From sequence record PZ445425.1: a stretch of 60,068 bases of DNA. The stretch is one strand, 5' to 3'. The position numbers were made by a program, and so were the translations under genes. The DNA comes from a phage. Shown here piece by piece: positions 1,572-56,539 of this stretch (its first letter is position 1; each line of letters opens with the position of its first letter). Below the pieces are notes generated by a model. That model was given only the letters and a program-made list of their open reading frames with translations, did not search any database and was not told the DNA's origin.

Positions 1572-3068
1572 ATGGGTATTGATGCAACTCACCCGCTATA
1601 TGACAAGTGGAAGGATGCATGGGTTAAGTGCAACGACTGCTATGAGGGTGAAGATAAAATTAAGGAAGAAGGTGTTAAATATCTACCACCTTTAGCTTCC
1701 ATGATTATTGATGGGATGAATAATCCTAATGATTTGGGCTTTCAACGTTGGCTCGCTTATCGTCTGCGTGCTAACTTCCCTGACGATTATTCAAGTGCGG
1801 TCACAAACAATTTAGGTCTGTTGCACCAGAAGCCTCCTACAATCCAGCTTCCCCCTGAAATGGAATACATGCGGGAGCTGTGTACTGCGGATGGTGAAGA
1901 CATTATCGCTCTACTACGTCGCATCAACGAAATGCAGTTAAAAAATGGACGTTTAGGCCTGCTTCTGGACTTGCCGAAAGGTGAGGATGTAAATAACAGA
2001 CCTTATATTAGCGTTTATGATGCTTTATCCATTATCAACTGGGATGATGGTAAAGATGAATTAGGCAATATCAACTTGAACATGGTTGTTCTGGATGAAA
2101 GCGGGCCTGTACGTGTTAATCAGTTTGACTGGAAAGAAGAGAAGCGTTATCGCGTTCTGCAATTAGGTCCGATGGACACAGATGAAGTTGCAGGTGGGGC
2201 GGTCTACTCCCAGCATTTATTTATCAACAATACCAATTATGATGAAGGACAAATGATTGCTCCTTATTATAAAGGTAACACGCTGGACGAAATACCTTTC
2301 CAGTTTGTTAATACAACAGATATTACACCAGCACCGGAAGCGCCTCCATTGTTGGGGCTAGCTAACATCTGCCTAAGCATGTACCGAAGCGACGCTGATT
2401 ACCGTCAAAGTCTGCATATGCAGGGTCAGGACACGTTAGTTGTTGTTGGTGGCTCGGGTGAGAATGGAGATAAAGCCCCTCAGCGCATCGGTCCCGGAGC
2501 GGTCATTAACGTTGCTCTTGGGGGTGACGCTAAATATGTAGGCGTTAGCGGTGATGGTTTGTCCGAGCAACGCCTTGCATTGGCAGCGGATAAGCAGGAA
2601 GCTCAGATTAAAGCTGGGCAGATGGTAAACAACACCAAGAGCACGCAGGAATCAGGCGAAGCTATGAAAACGCGTATTGCTGCGCGTACCGCTAGCCTGA
2701 TCCGAATTGCGTATACTGGTGCAGCAGGTTTGGAAAACTTGCTGAAGGTTTGTGCTAAATGGATGGGTGCTGATCCCGAGAAGGTTGTGGTTAAGCCTAA
2801 TCTTGAATTTACCAAGAGTATGTTCAATGGTCAGGACTTTGTTCAAATTATTACTGCACGCAACCTTAAGGCTCCGATCAGCTTGAAGTCTATTCATGGC
2901 TGGCTTGTTGATCAGGGCTTAACCACACTAAGCTTTGAAGAAGAAATGGCAATTCTTGAAGAAGAGCTTAAGAAGTGGCCTCTGCCCGATGATGCTAAGG
3001 CTGATTTAAACGCAGAGCAGCAAGTAAACAAAGATCCTAAGGAAGACGACGCTTCCGATAAAGAATAG
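1572..3068 (+). CDS. portal protein
   Basis: 498-aa ORF immediately after terminase; size and acidic C-terminus typical of portals; synteny. Confidence 0.6.
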   Translation: MGIDATHPLYDKWKDAWVKCNDCYEGEDKIKEEGVKYLPPLASMIIDGMNNPNDLGFQRWLAYRLRANFPDDYSSAVTNNLGLLHQKPPTIQLPPEMEYMRELCTADGEDIIALLRRINEMQLKNGRLGLLLDLPKGEDVNNRPYISVYDALSIINWDDGKDELGNINLNMVVLDESGPVRVNQFDWKEEKRYRVLQLGPMDTDEVAGGAVYSQHLFINNTNYDEGQMIAPYYKGNTLDEIPFQFVNTTDITPAPEAPPLLGLANICLSMYRSDADYRQSLHMQGQDTLVVVGGSGENGDKAPQRIGPGAVINVALGGDAKYVGVSGDGLSEQRLALAADKQEAQIKAGQMVNNTKSTQESGEAMKTRIAARTASLIRIAYTGAAGLENLLKVCAKWMGADPEKVVVKPNLEFTKSMFNGQDFVQIITARNLKAPISLKSIHGWLVDQGLTTLSFEEEMAILEEELKKWPLPDDAKADLNAEQQVNKDPKEDDASDKE

Positions 3069-3162
3069 TTGCAACTTCCAAATTGATTGGTTTATATTAA
3101 CGAACACGGGCTGGGACGGCTCAGCCCCAAAAACGTCACACGGGTGACAACGGAGATAAGAA

Positions 3163-4035
3163 ATGAAAAAGAGTTCTGTAGCTATTAGTGTTGGTTTTGC
3201 TCTAATTAATCCACGCGCTCGCGGTGAAGGTGATGTGGAACTGGAATACGAATATGCATCTGCGGAAGAGATCCCGGCAGAGTTTGCTGCTCTTTACGCA
3301 GAGCAGGGTGGTAAATACGTTCTTGCAAAAGTCAAAGGTGTAGCACCTGCTGATAGCGTTCGTCGTCTGGAAAGTGCATTAGCAAAAGAACGTAACGATC
3401 ATCGTCAGGTGAAGCAACAGATTAGCGCACTTGGGCGTCCGGTTGAAGAAGTTCTTGCGGACCTTGATCGTATCCCTCAACTGGAAGCTGCCGCTAACGG
3501 TAAAGGTACTCCGGAAGACATCGAAAAGATGGTTAAAGCCCGTCTTGCGCCGCTTGAGCGTCAATTGCAAACTGTTATCACCGAGCGTGACACGGTTAAG
3601 CAGGAAATTGAAGGCTACCGCACTCGCGAAACTAAAGCGAAGATTAAAGATGCAGTTATTGCCGCTGCTTCTGGTGCTAAATTGCGTCCATCTGCTATCG
3701 AAGACGCTGTAACTTATGCACAGTTGCAGATGACCGTCGACGAGAACGGCAATGTGGTTACGAAAGATGGGGCTGGTGTAACTCCTTACCTGACTCCGGC
3801 GGACTGGCTGAACGAAATCCTTCCGAAGCGTCCGCACTGGGTTGAAGGATCTGCTGGTGGCGGTGCATCTGGTCCGGGCGCTGGCGGCCATCACGGTGAA
3901 GACCCATACAGTCACGACGGCTGGAACATCTCTAAGCAGATGAACCTCTGGAAAACTAACCAATCTTTAGCTAAACGTTTAGCTGAAAAGAATGGCGTAG
4001 ACCCGCTGAAGCCTGTACGTCCTGCTAAGAAATAA
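3163..4035 (+). CDS. head scaffolding protein (putative)
   Basis: 290-aa charged, Ala/Glu/Lys-rich helical protein between portal and major capsid genes. Confidence 0.45.
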   Translation: MKKSSVAISVGFALINPRARGEGDVELEYEYASAEEIPAEFAALYAEQGGKYVLAKVKGVAPADSVRRLESALAKERNDHRQVKQQISALGRPVEEVLADLDRIPQLEAAANGKGTPEDIEKMVKARLAPLERQLQTVITERDTVKQEIEGYRTRETKAKIKDAVIAAASGAKLRPSAIEDAVTYAQLQMTVDENGNVVTKDGAGVTPYLTPADWLNEILPKRPHWVEGSAGGGASGPGAGGHHGEDPYSHDGWNISKQMNLWKTNQSLAKRLAEKNGVDPLKPVRPAKK

Positions 4036-18007: not shown

Positions 18008-18089
18008 TGGGACTCCTTTGTGTTGTTGTCAAGGTTCAATTCTAATATACTTGTTGTGTTGAGTAAGTCAAATAAATGTGGGAGATATT

Positions 18090-21000
18090 ATGGCAACTCG
18101 TTTACGTGGTACTTTAGTTGATGGTTTAAATAAACCAATTGTCAACGCTACAGTTGCGCTTTTAGCGAAAGGGAATAGCTTATTGGTATTGTCCGGTAGT
18201 GAAGCTATCTTTAAAACAAGCGCAACCGGAACATATGATATTACCGTCCAAACAGGCTATTACAAGGTTATTATCGGTCCACAAGGTAGCGAGCCTTATA
18301 AAGCTGGTGAAATTGCTATTTACGCGGACAGTAAAGAAGGTACGCTGAATAACTATTTAACTTCCTGGGCGCCAGAAGAGTTAACTCCAGAAGTTATTGC
18401 ACAGGTTAAAGATTTAGTTTCACAAGCTGAGACAGCTAAGAATGCTTCAGCTTCGTCAGCTACTAAATCCGAGCAGGAGCGAGTTAAAGCAGAAGCTGCT
18501 GCTAAAAAGGCGGAAGACACTGCTAATGGTATGAAGGCGTCTATTGGTTTAACAAATAACCCTCGAGATTGTCCAGATATCTCCGGCAATCCTTCTTCCT
18601 TTTTAGGCTTTCTACGAATTATGGAAAGTGCAATTGGCTGGCCTTCTGTAGCTTCAGGTGAGCGTTATTTATCCGGTTTTATTTGCCCAACTTTAGGGAG
18701 CGATCCAACATTCACTGGGCTATTTATAGGGTATCTTACTGGTAGCACTTATACTTATAAATGGAACCCATCTAGCGGACCTTTGTGGTATAAACATATC
18801 AAGTCCTCGGAAATAGATAGATATAGTCAATTATCCGATTCCACTGCTATTTATAATGCATCAAAGAGCGCTAGCCTTGTCATAAAAGATACTAAAACTT
18901 GGGGAGCTTGGGACAATCAAACTTCCAAATATATACCTCTTGCAATAGCTCAGGGTGGTACAGGAGGAGTTACTGACGCGGATGCTCGTACTAACCTAGG
19001 ATTAGGGCGGAGTAGTTCACCCACATTTGGTCATTTAAATCTTCTTGTTGAAAGTGATTCAGCACTAGCTTCATCAGGAATGATTAATCAGTATTTACGT
19101 AATACTAATGGGACACAGAGGGCTCGTAGCAGAATTTATTCTGAAATAAGAGGCGACAATAAAGCGTGGTTAACACTTCATCTCCAATCGGATGCCGCGA
19201 CAAATAAATATGCCGGTTTAAGTATTGATGGTAACTTCCAGATTAATGGAAGCTTTATCGGTAGTGCTTTGAGCCTTACCGATGTTGCTACCTCTAAAGT
19301 AAATCTGCAAATTAATAGGTTTGTTCAGAACACTGGTGAAACTGATGTGGTTAACCATGCAGCGACAGCTCAAATTTTTATCACTGATAATAAAAATTGG
19401 GGGGCTTACGATAAAGAATTAAAACGACATATTCCGTTACCCGTTTCACAGGGTGGAACTGGAGCGGTTACTATTGGTGACGCTAAGACAAATTTACAAA
19501 TACCTTCTGTTGGTGCTGGAGACTGGTTGGAGATTGCTGCTCCTTCTGGCGTTGAAGCGGGGAAATATTATCCAATTGTAATCAAAGCTCAATATGCCTC
19601 TTTATATGCTTCTGGTTTCTTTATAGATATACAAACTAGAAGCTCTAGCGGTTCGGATCCTATGAACTGTTGTACATTTAACGGATTCATACGAACAGGT
19701 GGTTGGTCGGATAGGAAAGACGCTGGCTATGGATACTATAACCGATATGGTTCTAATGAGCTTGCTTTAAAATGCATATTGGTATCCGCTAAGAATGCTG
19801 AAGACAATATAGCTGTATATGTAGAAGGTAGAGCATTCCCAGTGAAAATGCGCATACCTCAATTTTGCACAGCTACGGCAGTCGCTTCAGCTTCTACATA
19901 TGGTGAAGTGACATTTGCTTGGGGTACATCCAATCCTGCTACAGATTCAGTTGGGGTAAATACCCTATTTGATTTCTCTTTAAATAGAGTTGGTTTTTAT
20001 CAAGCATCTACTGTAGGAAACTATTATATTGGTAACGGCCAACGTATAGTTCTTTCTAATGGGATGTCCGTAGGGGATGAATTAAGCTTAACCACACCTA
20101 AGATTACTTTCAGTGGCACAGTAGCAGCGGGTAACGGTTTTATTGCGGATGGGACGTCTGTATCCAATGCTACTTTTTATAGTCGTTATCGTGTCGGTGA
20201 TACTATTTACGGTGCGGAGTTCCGAGCTAGTGAGAATGCAGCTCAGGTTATTGTTAGAGATCCGACAGGAACTAACCATCAATTCTTCAACTTTAATCTT
20301 AACGGAAGCTTCAGTCCGCCAAACGGATTATTGTCTTCTACTGGTGTGGATTGGAACAGTCAAATTAATACCGTCAATAAGTTCTATGGAATTGCTGGAC
20401 AAGTTAACACACCAGAAAATAATGTGGTTTATGGTGGTATCCATGTAGGATTTAGCGGAAACTATGCCTTTCAGATATGCGGAAGAAATGGTAAATCATT
20501 CTTTAGAACAGTTGAGGCTGGACAAGAAGGGCAATGGAATAGGCTCCTTGTCAAAAACGACTATGGTGTAGGTTCTGTTGCCGAAAATCTGCCGAACGAC
20601 GCGTCTAGCGGTTTTTATTCGGACTCCAAAGCAATTTCTTGGGCTCCTGGTAGTGGAGCGGGCTTTCAGTCGTCCTATGATGCAAACAGAATATGGCAAT
20701 TTTGGTTAAACCAACAATCGCAAGCTCTTTTTCGTTATAACGATAGCGGTAACGCGCAAGCGTCTAAGACAGACAGACCTTGGACAACGCTTCAAGCTGC
20801 TGGTACATCTGATATTAATTTCAAGCGTGTGCACGGTGAAATGGACACAGATGTTGCGTTAGATAATATTAGCAAGCTTGAATTTGTTTATTTCAACTAC
20901 TTGTCCGATGGTCCGGAGCGTGACATTCGCAGAGGTATCATAGCGCAACAGGCCCAGGAAGTTGATCCTGAATATGTACATAGTGCTGAAACATCCGGAA

Positions 21001-21170
21001 AAATGACTTTGGATTCTAACCCATTGTTATTGGATGCATTAGCTGCAATACAATCCCTCAAGAAAAAGGATCAAGATAATAAAGACCGTATTAGTAAACT
21101 TGAGACTGAAGTCGAGGAACTTAAGACGTTAGTTGCTACGCTTGTTAATAAAGAGCAACCATTACCATAA
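18090..21170 (+). CDS. tail fibre with C-terminal intramolecular chaperone domain
   Basis: Start set to ATG 18090 (RBS GGGAGA); C-terminal region and final coiled-coil resemble self-cleaving chaperone domains of fibres and tailspikes. Confidence 0.7.
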   Translation: MATRLRGTLVDGLNKPIVNATVALLAKGNSLLVLSGSEAIFKTSATGTYDITVQTGYYKVIIGPQGSEPYKAGEIAIYADSKEGTLNNYLTSWAPEELTPEVIAQVKDLVSQAETAKNASASSATKSEQERVKAEAAAKKAEDTANGMKASIGLTNNPRDCPDISGNPSSFLGFLRIMESAIGWPSVASGERYLSGFICPTLGSDPTFTGLFIGYLTGSTYTYKWNPSSGPLWYKHIKSSEIDRYSQLSDSTAIYNASKSASLVIKDTKTWGAWDNQTSKYIPLAIAQGGTGGVTDADARTNLGLGRSSSPTFGHLNLLVESDSALASSGMINQYLRNTNGTQRARSRIYSEIRGDNKAWLTLHLQSDAATNKYAGLSIDGNFQINGSFIGSALSLTDVATSKVNLQINRFVQNTGETDVVNHAATAQIFITDNKNWGAYDKELKRHIPLPVSQGGTGAVTIGDAKTNLQIPSVGAGDWLEIAAPSGVEAGKYYPIVIKAQYASLYASGFFIDIQTRSSSGSDPMNCCTFNGFIRTGGWSDRKDAGYGYYNRYGSNELALKCILVSAKNAEDNIAVYVEGRAFPVKMRIPQFCTATAVASASTYGEVTFAWGTSNPATDSVGVNTLFDFSLNRVGFYQASTVGNYYIGNGQRIVLSNGMSVGDELSLTTPKITFSGTVAAGNGFIADGTSVSNATFYSRYRVGDTIYGAEFRASENAAQVIVRDPTGTNHQFFNFNLNGSFSPPNGLLSSTGVDWNSQINTVNKFYGIAGQVNTPENNVVYGGIHVGFSGNYAFQICGRNGKSFFRTVEAGQEGQWNRLLVKNDYGVGSVAENLPNDASSGFYSDSKAISWAPGSGAGFQSSYDANRIWQFWLNQQSQALFRYNDSGNAQASKTDRPWTTLQAAGTSDINFKRVHGEMDTDVALDNISKLEFVYFNYLSDGPERDIRRGIIAQQAQEVDPEYVHSAETSGKMTLDSNPLLLDALAAIQSLKKKDQDNKDRISKLETEVEELKTLVATLVNKEQPLP

Positions 21171-21187
21171 CCACATCTAACTTCAAC

Positions 21188-21211
21188 AGCGCGTCTTCGG
21201 GCGCGCTTTTT
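21188..21211 (+). terminator. rho-independent terminator after tail fibre
   Basis: agcgcgtc-ttcg-ggcgcgct hairpin followed by TTTTT. Confidence 0.75.
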
Positions 21212-21341
21212 ATTGGCTGTCAATCCCAATTTACAAAATCTTTACATTTGGATCATTGTAAAAAGCATGTTAAGGGCTATGCTTTACTTCGTAACCAGTT
21301 GGTTACATCCGCTTAACAAATCCATATATGGAGATTTTCCT

Positions 21342-21590
21342 ATGTCTGACATGACTCTTTTACCTACTAATCTCGGTGGCGACGGTTTCGGTGGTGAAGC
21401 TGGTGCGGCTGGTATCGGTGGCGCGATCGGTGGCTTAATTGGTTCCTGGATCGGTAATGGTTGGGGTGGCAATGGTGGTTGGGGTGGTCGCGGTAACTTC
21501 GCTGGTCCGGTGGAAGTGCAAGCTTCTGTTGATACCAACGCAATTCTGCAAGCTATCAACAACGGTACTCTTCAGACCATTCAGGGGTAG
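21342..21590 (+). CDS. glycine-rich protein ending at in-frame TAG
   Basis: Start ATG 21342 (RBS GGAG); GGxGG-rich sequence; stop TAG at 21588-21590 is followed by 153 further in-frame sense codons. Confidence 0.5.
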   Translation: MSDMTLLPTNLGGDGFGGEAGAAGIGGAIGGLIGSWIGNGWGGNGGWGGRGNFAGPVEVQASVDTNAILQAINNGTLQTIQG

Positions 21591-22049
21591 AACGGTACTA
21601 ACCTGACTGTTGAGCGCTCCGCTGCTTCTACCTATAACGGTATTACTCAGCAGAACACTCAGAACCTACTGGCTTCCGTTCAGGGCTTTGCTGGTCTGAA
21701 CACGCAAATCCAGGGCGGCACCAGCCAAGTGCTCGCGGCTCTGTGTAACAACGAAGCAGCTAACATTACCCGCTCCTTCCAGGCTCAGTTAGAAGCTCAG
21801 AAGTGTTGCTGCGAAACCAACCTGAACATCGAGCGTCAAGCAGAAGCTACTCGTGCTCTCCTGCGCGATCAGCACGCACAAGCGCAAGCTGTTCTGATCT
21901 GTGACCTGAAGTCCCAGTTGCAGGAAGCTCGCTTTGCAAACTCTCAGTTGGCGCAGACGGCTGGCCTTACCTGTAAAATCAATCAGGTTGAGCAGTTAGT
22001 TAACTTTAAACTGCCAACTCCTCCGACTCCTCCGACTGGCTGCTGCTAA
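21591..22049 (+). CDS. in-frame continuation after TAG (possible readthrough product or separate GTG-start ORF)
   Basis: Same frame as 21342..21590 with no stop until 22047-22049; similar N/Q/T/G-rich composition; first canonical start is GTG at 21729. Confidence 0.35.
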   Translation, partial: NGTNLTVERSAASTYNGITQQNTQNLLASVQGFAGLNTQIQGGTSQVLAALCNNEAANITRSFQAQLEAQKCCCETNLNIERQAEATRALLRDQHAQAQAVLICDLKSQLQEARFANSQLAQTAGLTCKINQVEQLVNFKLPTPPTPPTGCC

Positions 22050-22071
22050 TCGTTGAAGTGTGGTTAAACTA

Positions 22072-22105
22072 AAGCGCCTTTCGCTCCTCCGCTTGGGGCG
22101 CTTTT
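22072..22105 (+). terminator. terminator-like hairpin
   Basis: aagcgcc ... ggcgctt stem with TTTT. Confidence 0.35.
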
Positions 22106-22120
22106 AACAGAGGTAATATC

Positions 22121-22489
22121 ATGAGCCACATTAAAATTGCAACGATGGGAATGCCACGGGTCAAATTGCCTAAGGTTGCTTTACCTCGCATTAGCGTAGG
22201 TGAGCACCACCATGAACATGAGAAAGAGGAATATAAACATGCTCACTCTTATGCTCGAGATCATGAACATATGGCAGCTATGTCAAATGTTCTTGACCGG
22301 ATGGAAGAACCTCCGCATACGTGGGCGGCGTACCACGACAAGCCCGGCGGTATGATGTCCATTGTTGAAATGGAATACCGCGAATTAATGGAGTGTAAGA
22401 AAGAAGGCGACCGCGCAGGGATCATGAAAGAGTTGACTGATCTTGCCGCAGCTTGTACTTGTGCTCTTCAAAAAATGAAAGATATGTAA
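22121..22489 (+). CDS. His/Glu-rich protein, possibly MazG-like nucleotide pyrophosphohydrolase
   Basis: 122 aa; EEYxxxxE and ELTDL acidic motifs; weak assignment. Confidence 0.3.
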   Translation: MSHIKIATMGMPRVKLPKVALPRISVGEHHHEHEKEEYKHAHSYARDHEHMAAMSNVLDRMEEPPHTWAAYHDKPGGMMSIVEMEYRELMECKKEGDRAGIMKELTDLAAACTCALQKMKDM

Positions 22490-22504
22490 GAATAGGAAGC
22501 CGAC

Positions 22505-23035
22505 ATGCAAAACGTAAACGCAGGAATGGGCGTAACCCAGTTCAACGGGATGAAACCGAAAAACTCCATCAACATGGGCGGTGTTGATTGGACGTTACGT
22601 CGGGACGCTACCGATTCAACTACCATGTTCCCACACCAGAAGGTAAGCTGGCTTAATGCTGGCTGTGAACCTATGGGTGATGGAAGGGTTCATTACTGTT
22701 GGATTATGGGAGTGATACCGCCTACGCCGGGCACTATCGAACGACCCGTGAATGTGATGTATGTCGGCTTCCACCAGTTCAAGATTACAATTGCTCCAAA
22801 CTCCATTAGTCAGTCAGATCTTGATCGTATGCATGTTTACGTCAGCGATGGCACAGACTTCGCAGGGGATTTTATTAGTAAGTTTCTTGGTATGCAACCA
22901 GAGCAGCCTGTAGAAGCACGCGAGCATATTAGCCCGTGGCCACCCATGATTGATCAGGAAGTGCTGCAACCAAAGACCGCTCAAACGGTCCCTCAGAAAC
23001 CGGAGCAGAAGGTGAAACCAAATGACGAAGAATGA
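22505..23035 (+). CDS. hypothetical protein
   Basis: 176-aa ORF with RBS. Confidence 0.5.
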   Translation: MQNVNAGMGVTQFNGMKPKNSINMGGVDWTLRRDATDSTTMFPHQKVSWLNAGCEPMGDGRVHYCWIMGVIPPTPGTIERPVNVMYVGFHQFKITIAPNSISQSDLDRMHVYVSDGTDFAGDFISKFLGMQPEQPVEAREHISPWPPMIDQEVLQPKTAQTVPQKPEQKVKPNDEE

Positions 23036-23306
23036 AGGTATTGATAAAGTCGTTGAAGGGCTTTCTATTCGTGCTCATGTTATAGCAGACGAAGGTCATG
23101 ATCAACTTACAATTATGAAATCTGCATTCAGCGATTTTAAGTCTCTTGGAAACTTAAGCGGGTTAATGACTGTGGTGTCGACCGGAAAATTAACCCAGCA
23201 GCAAATCAGTCTAGCTCAGCGTATTGCTGTTAAAGTTATTGCGGTACTTGGGATGATTGAAGCTGAAAAGCCCAGTTCCAAGCAGGATAACGAAAGCGAC
23301 CTTTAA
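23022..23306 (+). CDS. hypothetical protein
   Basis: 94-aa ORF overlapping upstream stop. Confidence 0.45.
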   Translation: MTKNEGIDKVVEGLSIRAHVIADEGHDQLTIMKSAFSDFKSLGNLSGLMTVVSTGKLTQQQISLAQRIAVKVIAVLGMIEAEKPSSKQDNESDL

Positions 23307-23317
23307 GGAGGTCTACT

Positions 23318-23521
23318 ATGTGTGGTAATACTAACCGTTGCTGTCTAGGCAGTCCTGCAACACAAGCAGGTATACTTCAGGGGCAATTGGCTCAAGCAGC
23401 GTGTAATTGCAAAACTTTTCAACCAGTAGCGCCAACTCCTGTGTTTGTGAATGCTTTTGCACCGCCTGTTTTCAATACTTTTGGCGTATACCCATACGGT
23501 GCTTTCTTTCGTATATTCTAA
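23318..23521 (+). CDS. small Cys-rich protein
   Basis: 67 aa, RBS GGAGG; several Cys. Confidence 0.4.
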   Translation: MCGNTNRCCLGSPATQAGILQGQLAQAACNCKTFQPVAPTPVFVNAFAPPVFNTFGVYPYGAFFRIF

Positions 23522-56113: not shown

Positions 56114-56539
56114 ATGTCAGTAAATTTTGTCAAACAGCCAACTTTAAATACATGCGTTTCTGCGTGTTTGGCAATGATCCTTAATAAACCTGTTGAGAAG
56201 GTCATTGAGGAATTTCACAGTCGTTATTATAACAACTGGGAAATCACTATCAGCGAATATTTGACTAAAAATGGCGTCCAGCATCATTGTTCAGAAGGTG
56301 GTGGGCGTGAAACTTTGCATATGGGAGGTTTATTCCTGTGCACGGTGCCAAGTCTTAATATTCCTGGCGCATTGCACCAGATTGTGATTGATATGACGGA
56401 TCACAAGTTTATTGTGCATGATCCAATTAAAGGATGGGAAGGTAAAAAGTTCTATGTTGGTCCGGATCAAGATCCTGAGGAACCTGGAGCTTTTATCATT
56501 CATACTTGGGTCAAAGACGTTGAAATCCTGCCTTATTAA
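56114..56539 (+). CDS. papain-like cysteine peptidase (C39-like)
   Basis: QPTLNTCVSACLAMIL closely matches the C39 Q...C...ACLAMIL motif; downstream HQIVID His candidate. Confidence 0.5.
   Translation: MSVNFVKQPTLNTCVSACLAMILNKPVEKVIEEFHSRYYNNWEITISEYLTKNGVQHHCSEGGGRETLHMGGLFLCTVPSLNIPGALHQIVIDMTDHKFIVHDPIKGWEGKKFYVGPDQDPEEPGAFIIHTWVKDVEILPY

What the first reader, a model, noticed from the sequence alone, without database searches (positions are those of the whole stretch)
21342..22049. Glycine-rich ORF interrupted by a single in-frame TAG
ORF 21342..21590 (GGDGFGGEAGAAGIGG...) ends at TAG, but the same frame then runs 153 codons without a stop to 22047-22049, with matching N/Q/T/G-rich composition and a Cys-rich end (KCCCE, GCC). 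The downstream part has no ATG; the first canonical start is GTG at 21729. This could be amber readthrough or suppression, a recent nonsense mutation, or two separate genes. The N-terminus (MSDMTLLPTNLGG followed by Gly-rich sequence) loosely resembles a double-glycine-leader bacteriocin precursor, and a C39-like peptidase is encoded at 56114..56539; that link is speculative.
Basis: partly seen in the sequence, partly recalled or inferred. Interest (0 to 1): 0.6.

Follow-up and report, generated by a model that had tools for sequence, protein, structure and literature searches.

The report
Nonsense mutation splitting a phage accessory gene
The "interrupted ORF" is a conserved 235-codon phage gene of unknown function in which one C-to-T change turned a glutamine codon into a stop; this is an ordinary gene-breaking mutation in a dispensable gene, not recoding and not a bacteriocin.

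Summary
In detail: ATG 21342, in-frame TAG 21588-21590, then 152 open codons to TAA 22047-22049. The window is Escherichia phage SeppeHuegi (Bas24, MZ501104), a Seuratvirus. In all 18 intact close relatives examined, the gene is one uninterrupted 708-nt ORF with CAG (Gln) at this codon. Gln is present in 40 of 41 diverse family members, and PHROG 9288 spans both halves (E=1e-129). The TAG is therefore a CAG>TAG nonsense mutation in a single gene. It is not two genes, and there is no sign of programmed readthrough: the stop is not conserved, the phage has no tRNA, there is no stimulatory RNA structure, and TAG is not reassigned genome-wide. The bacteriocin idea fails every test. The gene is accessory: it is deleted in Seurat and GottfriedDienst and truncated or fused in WildeMaa, VogelGryff and KurtStettler. 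Phage Skure carries the same TAG and was isolated on non-suppressor K-12. One curiosity remains. The same TAG occurs in three distinct phage genomes and a -1 frameshift sits in the adjoining GGGG run in two other assemblies, while the few private changes downstream of the stop are all synonymous. Function stays unknown: a glycine-rich N-terminus plus one long predicted helix, always the first gene of a conserved four-gene cassette.

The parts
21342..21587 (+). Codons 1-82 of the disrupted gene: conserved MSDMTLLP start and Gly-rich hydrophobic stretch. This is the only part certain to be translated. GenBank annotates it as bas24_0023 from an upstream ATG.
   Evidence: GGAG lies 8 nt upstream at 21330-21333. 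The family N-terminus is conserved from M1.
21588..21590 (+). Premature amber stop (TAG). The ancestral codon is CAG (Gln83). The C>T change also turns a GGC motif into GGT.
   Evidence: CAG in 18/18 intact close relatives. Gln in 40/41 diverse homologues. The same TAG is in Skure and in SRR35114254.
21591..22049 (+). Codons 84-235 plus the TAA stop: the now untranslated, or barely translated, C-terminal two thirds, with the QGFAGLN and CCCE motifs, a long predicted helix and a PTPPTPPTGCC end. GenBank's bas24_0024 (GTG 21729 to 22049) is an artefact of gene calling within it.
   Evidence: No start codon is conserved or needed here in relatives.
21188..21207 (+). Intrinsic terminator after the lateral tail fibre gene, upstream of the disrupted gene.
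   Evidence: The equivalent site is annotated as a terminator in SA80RD and SA126VB.
22072..22113 (+). Terminator-like hairpin plus T-run after the gene. The position is inferred by transferring the annotated terminator of SA80RD.
   Evidence: The consensus scan did not pick it up.
22121..22489 (+). Second gene of the conserved four-gene cassette (122 aa, PHROG 9157; called 'putative pyrophosphatase' in other BASEL records).
22505..23035 (+). Third gene of the cassette (176 aa, PHROG 8329).
23022..23306 (+). Fourth gene of the cassette (94 aa, PHROG 7239).
18078..21170 (+). Upstream lateral tail fibre gene (phage_tail_N domain and Peptidase_S74 intramolecular chaperone). It is a neighbour in Seuratviruses but not an obligate partner of the family.

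Best explanation
The region is one gene, a member of a conserved ~235-aa phage family (PHROG 9288) of unknown function. In this phage (SeppeHuegi, Bas24) it carries a genuine CAG>TAG nonsense mutation at codon 83. In a non-suppressor host, translation stops after 82 residues, so the phage makes at most the Gly-rich N-terminal fragment and essentially no full-length protein. This is tolerated because the gene is accessory and not needed for plaque formation on E. coli K-12. The allele is recent, or is kept similar to intact alleles by recombination, and has not decayed further. Shown: the mutation, its ancestral state, the single-gene nature, dispensability, and occurrence of the same allele in other phages. 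Inferred: that the truncation is a loss of function, or a strong hypomorph, that is neutral or mildly advantageous under the conditions of isolation.
For: Single gene: relatives annotate one 708-nt CDS. All of the 120 best database homologues listed are 197-270 aa. PHROG 9288 covers residues 1-235. Both halves are conserved to a similar degree, 0.71 vs 0.78 mean column identity. Ancestral CAG: 18/18 intact close alleles and Gln in 40/41 diverse homologues. Real, not an artefact: the same TAG is in independently Illumina-sequenced Skure and in a third assembly, and SeppeHuegi was assembled at 77x. Dispensable: Skure was isolated on non-suppressor MG1655 and SeppeHuegi's relatives in the same collection list host K-12. 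The gene is absent from Seurat and GottfriedDienst and truncated or fused in WildeMaa, VogelGryff and KurtStettler. No recoding machinery: no tRNA, no significant local structure, z=0.23, and no other conserved frame interrupted by TAG. Recent: apart from the TAG, only one private substitution in the window allele.
Against: The identical TAG sits in three genomes that are not each other's closest relatives genome-wide (window vs Skure 92.8% identity over 79% coverage). A -1 frameshift in the adjacent GGGG run occurs in two further assemblies. The three private changes downstream of the stop, all in SRR35114254, are synonymous; the neutral expectation is 24-33% synonymous, so P is about 0.014-0.035. 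An old, freely decaying pseudogene would not look like this. UAG followed by A is a comparatively leaky context, and both supE suppression and near-cognate reading by tRNA-Gln would insert the original Gln (my own knowledge, not tested here), so some full-length protein may still be made.
Confidence: 0.8

Rival explanations
1. Functional leaky amber. The TAG allele is maintained because low-level readthrough, which would insert Gln and restore the wild-type sequence, gives a little full-length protein alongside an abundant 82-aa N-terminal product. That would make it a regulated or hypomorphic two-product allele.
For: The same TAG occurs in three distinct phage genomes. All 11 differences among the TAG alleles are synonymous, including 3 private ones downstream of the stop. 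The next base is A, a favourable suppression context by my own knowledge.
Against: The stop is absent from 18/18 intact close relatives and from 41 diverse homologues. There is no suppressor tRNA and no stimulatory structure. The three TAG alleles lie in one shallow clade, so they may represent a single recent event. The synonymous-only pattern rests on 3 sites and on incomplete sampling of intact alleles.
Confidence: 0.1
2. Site-specific recurrence. The GGGG-CAG site is a mutational hotspot, possibly linked to dPreQ0 modification of the GGC motif, or truncation just here is positively selected during growth on K-12. Under this view TAG and the -1 frameshift arose repeatedly and independently.
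For: Five assemblies are broken within 5 nt of each other. WildeMaa's deletion starts 22 nt further on and leaves a 94-aa N-terminal product. The gene has 65 possible one-step nonsense changes, 18 of them CAG>TAG. In CAjan, GGC is a preQ0-modified motif and GGT is not (PMC7544227). This is the only in-frame CAG preceded by GG.
Against: The TAG alleles are among each other's nearest neighbours in a 2-kb tree, which fits one origin. The gene has only three GGGG runs, so a run-length frameshift landing next to the TAG codon has roughly a 1-in-3 chance. The gene has 16 GGC motifs on the + strand and none of the others is hit. WildeMaa's junction is explained by a 7-bp ACTGTTG microhomology. The other disruptions (Seurat, GottfriedDienst, VogelGryff, KurtStettler) are elsewhere.
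Confidence: 0.07
3. Sequencing or assembly error in the window; the real phage has CAG.
For: A single-base difference from all intact relatives.
Against: Illumina at 77x. The same base is in two other independent assemblies, Skure and SRR35114254.
Confidence: 0.02
4. Two separate genes, or a double-glycine-leader bacteriocin precursor (82 aa) processed by the C39-like protein at 56114-56539.
For: GenBank annotates two CDSs. The short product is Gly-rich and the N-terminus contains LGG. ORF 56114 has a weak C39-like N-terminal motif.
Against: Relatives have one ORF and no start for the second part. The NLGG segment is an indel in the family. There is no bacteriocin Pfam hit. The C39 hit is below threshold and 34 kb away, and no ABC transporter is annotated in the stretches of CAjan read. 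The family norm is 235 aa.
Confidence: 0.01

Closest known systems
PHROG 9288 / pVOG VOG6360: conserved ~235-aa hypothetical protein of Seuratvirus, Nonagvirus, Sashavirus/Nonanavirus, Tlsvirus and related siphophages (e.g. CAjan gp21 YP_009196815.1, Greed ANY29815.1)
   Same: Full-length match of the joined sequence (E=1e-129). All family motifs are present. The genomic position is the same and the same three downstream partner genes follow.
   Different: The window copy is interrupted by TAG at the otherwise conserved Gln83. Only Skure and one SRA assembly share this.
Classical amber (CAG>TAG) nonsense mutations in non-essential phage genes, and pseudogenised accessory genes in lab-isolated phages
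   Same: A single C>T transition creating UAG in a gene that relatives can lose entirely. The phage remains viable on a sup0 host.
   Different: It is a natural allele rather than a selected conditional-lethal one. It is shared by three distinct wild isolates or assemblies, and it shows no secondary decay.
Programmed stop-codon readthrough or TAG-to-Gln reassignment in phages (e.g. the Q-beta A1 protein; TAG-recoded crAss-like and other gut phages). This comparison rests on my own knowledge.
   Same: An in-frame stop followed by a long homologous open frame. Gln is the residue that readthrough would insert.
   Different: The stop is not conserved, the phage has no suppressor tRNA, there is no stimulatory structure, and only one gene in the genome is affected.
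phiX174 protein H (DNA pilot protein)
   Same: Loose architectural resemblance: a Gly-rich N-terminal segment followed by a very long helix rich in Q, N and T. A Microvirus pilot protein was the top, non-significant BFVD hit at E=3.1.
   Different: No detectable homology: hhalign probability 0.18%. The genomic and biological context is also different.

Membership tests
PHROG 9288 family (conserved ~235-aa siphophage protein) | End-to-end match to the family profile | tested here: met
   E=1e-129 over residues 1-235 against profile positions 1-233 of 234.
PHROG 9288 family (conserved ~235-aa siphophage protein) | Conserved motifs: MSDM..P start, Gly-rich GSW.GNG stretch, QGFAGLN, CCCE, C-terminal PTPPTPP | tested here: met
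   All are present in the joined translation.
PHROG 9288 family (conserved ~235-aa siphophage protein) | Uninterrupted ORF | tested here: not met
   TAG at codon 83. The window copy is a disrupted member.
PHROG 9288 family (conserved ~235-aa siphophage protein) | First gene of a four-gene cassette (~230, ~92-122, ~163-179 and ~78-94 aa) | tested here: met
   Window genes at 22121, 22505 and 23022. The same cassette is seen in five other lineages.
Programmed readthrough / stop-codon recoding | The stop codon is conserved in relatives | tested here: not met
   CAG in 18/18 intact close alleles and Gln in 40/41 homologues.
Programmed readthrough / stop-codon recoding | Phage-encoded suppressor tRNA, or TAG avoided as a terminator genome-wide | tested here: not met
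   No tRNA genes. 17 of 115 long open frames end in TAG, and only this one continues into homologous sequence.
Programmed readthrough / stop-codon recoding | Stimulatory RNA structure downstream of the stop | tested here: not met
   The 61-nt window folds no better than shuffled sequences (z=0.23, folded with DNA parameters).
Programmed readthrough / stop-codon recoding | Full-length product detected | not testable with these tools
   Needs proteomics or a western blot.
Double-glycine-leader (class II) bacteriocin / microcin precursor | Conserved leader ending in GG at a fixed position | tested here: not met
   The 'NLGG' segment is an indel that is absent in many homologues. Only M1, M4, L6 and P8 are invariant.
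Double-glycine-leader (class II) bacteriocin / microcin precursor | Dedicated C39-peptidase ABC exporter | tested here: not met
   ORF 56114-56539 is 141 aa and hits Pfam C39 at 14.3 bits against a 22-bit cut-off, over residues 3-25 only. It belongs to PHROG 4049, function unknown. No ABC transporter is annotated in CAjan record positions 14000-59670.
Double-glycine-leader (class II) bacteriocin / microcin precursor | Match to a known bacteriocin family; small precursor | tested here: not met
   No Pfam or NCBIfam hit. The family norm is ~235 aa.
Tail fibre chaperone / assembly protein | Homology to Tfa-type or S74-type chaperones | tested here: not met
   No such hit. In KurtStettler the S74 domain lies in the fused N-terminal part, not in the homologous part.
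Tail fibre chaperone / assembly protein | Always encoded next to a tail fibre gene | tested here: not met
   It is adjacent in Seuratvirus and Tlsvirus. In Yersinia phage P400 and in L036/L037 it is not.
phiX174 H-like DNA pilot protein | Sequence or profile homology | tested here: not met
   hhalign probability 0.18%. Foldseek E=3.1.
Spanin (Rz-like) | Located in the lysis cassette and needed because no other spanin is present | tested here: not met
   CAjan has an endolysin, a holin and a LysB-domain protein at the genome end, 35 kb away.

The most novel reading that the evidence does not exclude
The break at codon 82/83 is not random. Under this reading, alleles that end the protein right after the Gly-rich N-terminal part (TAG in three genomes, a -1 frameshift in two assemblies, a deletion in WildeMaa) are selected or arise at a hotspot. 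Alternatively the TAG version is kept functional by Gln-inserting readthrough, so the phage population carries a switchable short/long form of this cassette protein. A link to preQ0 modification of the GGC motif that the mutation destroys is conceivable.
Probability: 0.1. Interest if true: 0.45.

Novelty: new member of a known kind. Interest (0 to 1): 0.2.

Why it matters
Mostly as a correction. GenBank's two CDSs in SeppeHuegi (bas24_0023 and bas24_0024) and in Skure are fragments of one gene and should be annotated as a disrupted gene. The names 'lateral tail fiber chaperone' and 'sugar-binding protein' that circulate for this family have no support beyond a fortuitous fusion. It also shows that a widely conserved four-gene cassette of small siphophages is dispensable on K-12. 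SeppeHuegi and Skure are therefore natural knock-outs, and CAjan and Greed natural wild types, for anyone wanting to find its function. The clustering of independent breaks at one spot is a minor curiosity that would cost little to test.

Tried and rejected
1. Bacteriocin / double-glycine leader: rejected.
2. Tail fibre chaperone: not supported. The name traces to the S74 domain of a fusion protein, and the family is not always next to a fibre gene.
3. Spanin: the lysis cassette is elsewhere.
4. Defence or anti-defence libraries: no PADLOC hit.
5. Solved-structure relatives: none by sequence or profile.
6. Fold search with the better AF2 model: nothing significant in BFVD or PDB.
7. phiX174 H lead: no homology.
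8. Coiled-coil claim: a simple 3.5-residue periodicity test was not significant, so I do not call it a coiled coil.
9. 'The break lies in an inter-domain loop': suggested by the first low-confidence model but not by the better one, where residue 83 lies inside helix 65-223. Dropped.
10. Short N-terminal-only database proteins as evidence for stand-alone peptides: they look like fragments with junk tails.
11. Dcm-type 5-methylcytosine hotspot: the context is not CCWGG.
13. Presence in E. coli chromosomes or plasmids: none.

Full report
**What is in the sequence**

An ORF starts at ATG 21342, with GGAG 8 nt upstream, and encodes MSDMTLLPTNLGGDGFGGEAGAAGIGG... It stops at TAG 21588-21590 after 82 codons. 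The same frame then stays open for 152 more codons to TAA 22047-22049. That stretch has no in-frame ATG, and its first canonical start is GTG 21729.

**Identity of the window**

The 106-aa product of the GTG-started fragment is QXV84484.1 (bas24_0024) and the N-terminal fragment is QXV84483.1 (bas24_0023). Both belong to Escherichia phage SeppeHuegi, whose contig length is 60,068. The BASEL S5 table lists SeppeHuegi (Bas24, MZ501104) as 60,068 bp, 77x coverage, from sewage in Lenzerheide, Switzerland, genus Seuratvirus. The collection was sequenced on Illumina. This record seems to be missing from the searchable phage collection, since the best hits are other Seuratviruses at about 94-96% identity.

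**One gene, broken by one base**

- PHROG 9288 is a 234-position profile. It matches the N-terminal part (E=7.8e-38), the C-terminal part (E=6e-79) and the joined protein end to end (E=1e-129).
- SLUR75, Greed, CAjan, slur01, SA80RD, SLUR76, SA126VB, RCIP0359, OddieOddie, ECP2304 and CSP1 annotate one 708-nt CDS at this place. KS_A8, Dru_SM1, SLUR25 and SD04 annotate one longer CDS from an upstream start.
- Across 22 aligned alleles the codon is CAG in 18 intact copies, including two metagenome contigs. It is TAG in the window, Skure and one SRA assembly, and it is hit by a 1-nt deletion in another SRA assembly.
- In a 41-sequence alignment reaching down to 60% identity, the residue is Gln in 40. 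It sits in the conserved motif IQGQNGTN.
- All of the 120 best homologues listed from a 5.8-billion-protein database are 197-270 aa.
- Both halves are conserved to a similar degree (0.71 vs 0.78).

The feature is therefore a CAG>TAG nonsense mutation at Gln83 of a single conserved gene. The GenBank annotation as two CDSs, here and in Skure, is a gene-calling artefact.

**No sign of recoding**

The phage has no tRNA gene. The sequence around the stop folds no better than shuffled controls (z=0.23). TAG is used as an ordinary terminator by 17 of 115 long open frames, and no other frame continues into homologous sequence. The stop is not conserved.

What cannot be excluded is passive leakiness. 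By my own knowledge, UAG followed by A is a relatively suppressible context, and both supE and near-cognate tRNA-Gln would insert the original Gln. But Skure was isolated on MG1655, and K-12 is the host listed for the BASEL Seuratvirus records I read. By my own knowledge these K-12 strains carry no amber suppressor.

**The gene is dispensable**

- Skure plaques on MG1655 with the same TAG.
- Seurat lacks window 19707-22843.
- GottfriedDienst lacks window 18413-22002.
- WildeMaa lacks window 21613-22694. The junction is a 7-bp ACTGTTG microhomology, and a 94-aa N-terminal product remains.
- VogelGryff has the C-terminal ~50 residues replaced.
- KurtStettler has the first 16 residues replaced by the tail end of a fibre gene.

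No copy exists in complete E. coli genomes or in plasmids.

**A residual curiosity**

- The TAG occurs in three different genomes. Window and Skure are only 92.8% identical over 79% of 25 kb, and they differ at five synonymous sites within the gene. SRR35114254 is a third haplotype.
- Two further assemblies carry a -1 deletion in the GGGG run that immediately precedes the codon.
- The gene offers 65 different one-step nonsense changes.

A 2-kb neighbour-joining tree puts the three TAG alleles in one shallow clade, as near neighbours of each other. The frameshift allele sits in a different clade. The simplest reading is therefore one TAG event spread by descent and recombination, plus one independent run-length frameshift in one of only three GGGG runs.

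The three private substitutions downstream of the stop, all in SRR35114254, are synonymous, and no deposited intact allele shares them. The neutral chance of that is about 0.014-0.035. This is a weak hint that the distal part is still under constraint, that the TAG is very young, or that intact relatives are simply unsampled.

The mutated C is the last base of a GGC motif. In CAjan, GGC is a site of preQ0 modification while GGT is not (PMC7544227). However, the gene has 15 other GGC motifs on the + strand that are untouched.

**What the intact protein is**

No Pfam, NCBIfam, PADLOC or PDB relative was found. A deep profile search found 123 relatives. The full-length ones are about 200-290 aa and share one architecture, and the larger multi-domain hits were uninformative.

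With a diverse alignment, AlphaFold gives a disordered Gly-rich N-terminus (residues 1-64, pLDDT below 50). It then gives one continuous helix from 65 to 223, with pLDDT of 83-97 for residues ~120-220. Fold searches found nothing significant. The phiX174 H-protein lead failed, and heptad periodicity is not significant.

The family's constant partners are three small downstream genes, which form a four-gene cassette in Seuratvirus, Tlsvirus, Sasha-like phages, Yersinia phage P400 and others. The upstream neighbour is a tail fibre gene only in some of these lineages. The label 'lateral tail fiber chaperone' derives from the S74 domain in the KurtStettler fusion.

My best guess, which is inference only, is an oligomeric, elongated, possibly membrane-active accessory protein acting together with its cassette partners. 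Its role would matter on natural hosts but not on K-12.

**The bacteriocin idea**

- The LGG at residues 11-13 lies in an indel region of the family.
- There is no bacteriocin family hit.
- ORF 56114-56539 does have a Q....C..ACLAMI-like N-terminus, but it scores 14.3 bits against a 22-bit Pfam C39 cut-off, over 23 residues only. It belongs to an unknown-function PHROG.
- The related CAjan genome lists no ABC transporter in the stretches I read, record positions 14000-59670.

**Verdict**

This is a real but ordinary feature: a natural amber mutation that disrupts a dispensable, widely conserved gene of unknown function. Interest is low. The only open thread is why several independent genomes are broken at the same spot.

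Noticed in passing
whole window: The window is Escherichia phage SeppeHuegi (Bas24, MZ501104, Seuratvirus, BASEL collection). The record itself is absent from the searchable phage collection, so the best hits are only 94-96% identical.
   Followed up: yes
window 21267-21590 and 21729-22049: The GenBank CDSs bas24_0023 (107 aa, from an upstream ATG) and bas24_0024 (106 aa, GTG start) are two fragments of one gene. The family-conserved start is ATG 21342, with GGAG 8 nt upstream. Skure has the same split annotation.
   Followed up: yes
L021 (SRR5886101 contig, 59,876 bp) 1640-2346; protein P0136: A -1 deletion in the GGGG run just before codon 83 (GGGGCAG to GGGCAG) gives an 87-aa product. A second assembly (P0136, 43.7-kb contig) encodes a near-identical 87-aa product with the same frameshifted tail. 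The platform and origin of these runs are unknown.
   Followed up: partly
window 21584-21590: The C>T change converts GGC, a preQ0-modified motif in the related phage CAjan, into GGT, which is reported as unmodified (PMC7544227). Whether modification affects mutation here is unknown.
   Followed up: partly
window 19707-22843 vs L023 (Seurat): Phage Seurat has a clean 3.1-kb deletion that fuses the middle of the lateral tail fibre gene to the middle of the 176-aa cassette gene. The weak PHROG 4128 'tail fiber protein' hit to residues 114-176 of the 22505-23035 product probably comes from such fusion proteins and does not indicate a real fibre domain.
   Followed up: partly
window 21613-22694 vs L025 (WildeMaa): WildeMaa has a deletion between two ACTGTTG microhomologies. 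It leaves a 94-aa N-terminal fragment of the gene (with CAG intact) and a truncated 176-aa gene.
   Followed up: yes
L012 (KurtStettler) 627-2159: A 510-aa fusion. The N-terminal ~290 aa carry a Peptidase_S74 intramolecular chaperone domain (residues 208-259), and the rest is this family from about residue 17. This appears to be the source of the 'lateral tail fiber chaperone' name that has spread to homologues such as PJ16_015.
   Followed up: yes
window 22121-23306 (also 23318-23521): A conserved cassette of three small genes (122, 176 and 94 aa; PHROGs 9157, 8329 and 7239) always follows this family in several phage genera. All are of unknown function. The 122-aa protein has a His-rich N-terminus (HHHEHEKEEYKHAH) and is called 'putative pyrophosphatase' in other BASEL records, but it has no Pfam, NCBIfam or PDB hit. 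The next ORF (67 aa, 23318-23521) is Cys-rich.
   Followed up: partly
window 56114-56539: This 141-aa ORF has an N-terminal motif (KQPTLNTCVSACLAMI) resembling the catalytic-Cys region of C39 peptidases. The hit is below threshold (Pfam E=0.037, 14.3 bits). It belongs to PHROG 4049, function unknown, and is conserved in CAjan as gp84. It may be a small papain-like peptidase.
   Followed up: partly
L016 (Salmonella phage 36, KR296690) 2414-3210: The homologue in this Tlsvirus record is also annotated as two CDSs. I did not determine the cause (stop, frameshift or sequence quality), and the record's annotation looks unreliable overall.
   Followed up: no
H148 (Escherichia phage SHIN8, PP627280) 19135-19346: Only the last ~210 nt of the gene are present, lying under a CDS annotated 'tail fiber protein'. 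This is probably another deletion or fusion at the locus.
   Followed up: no
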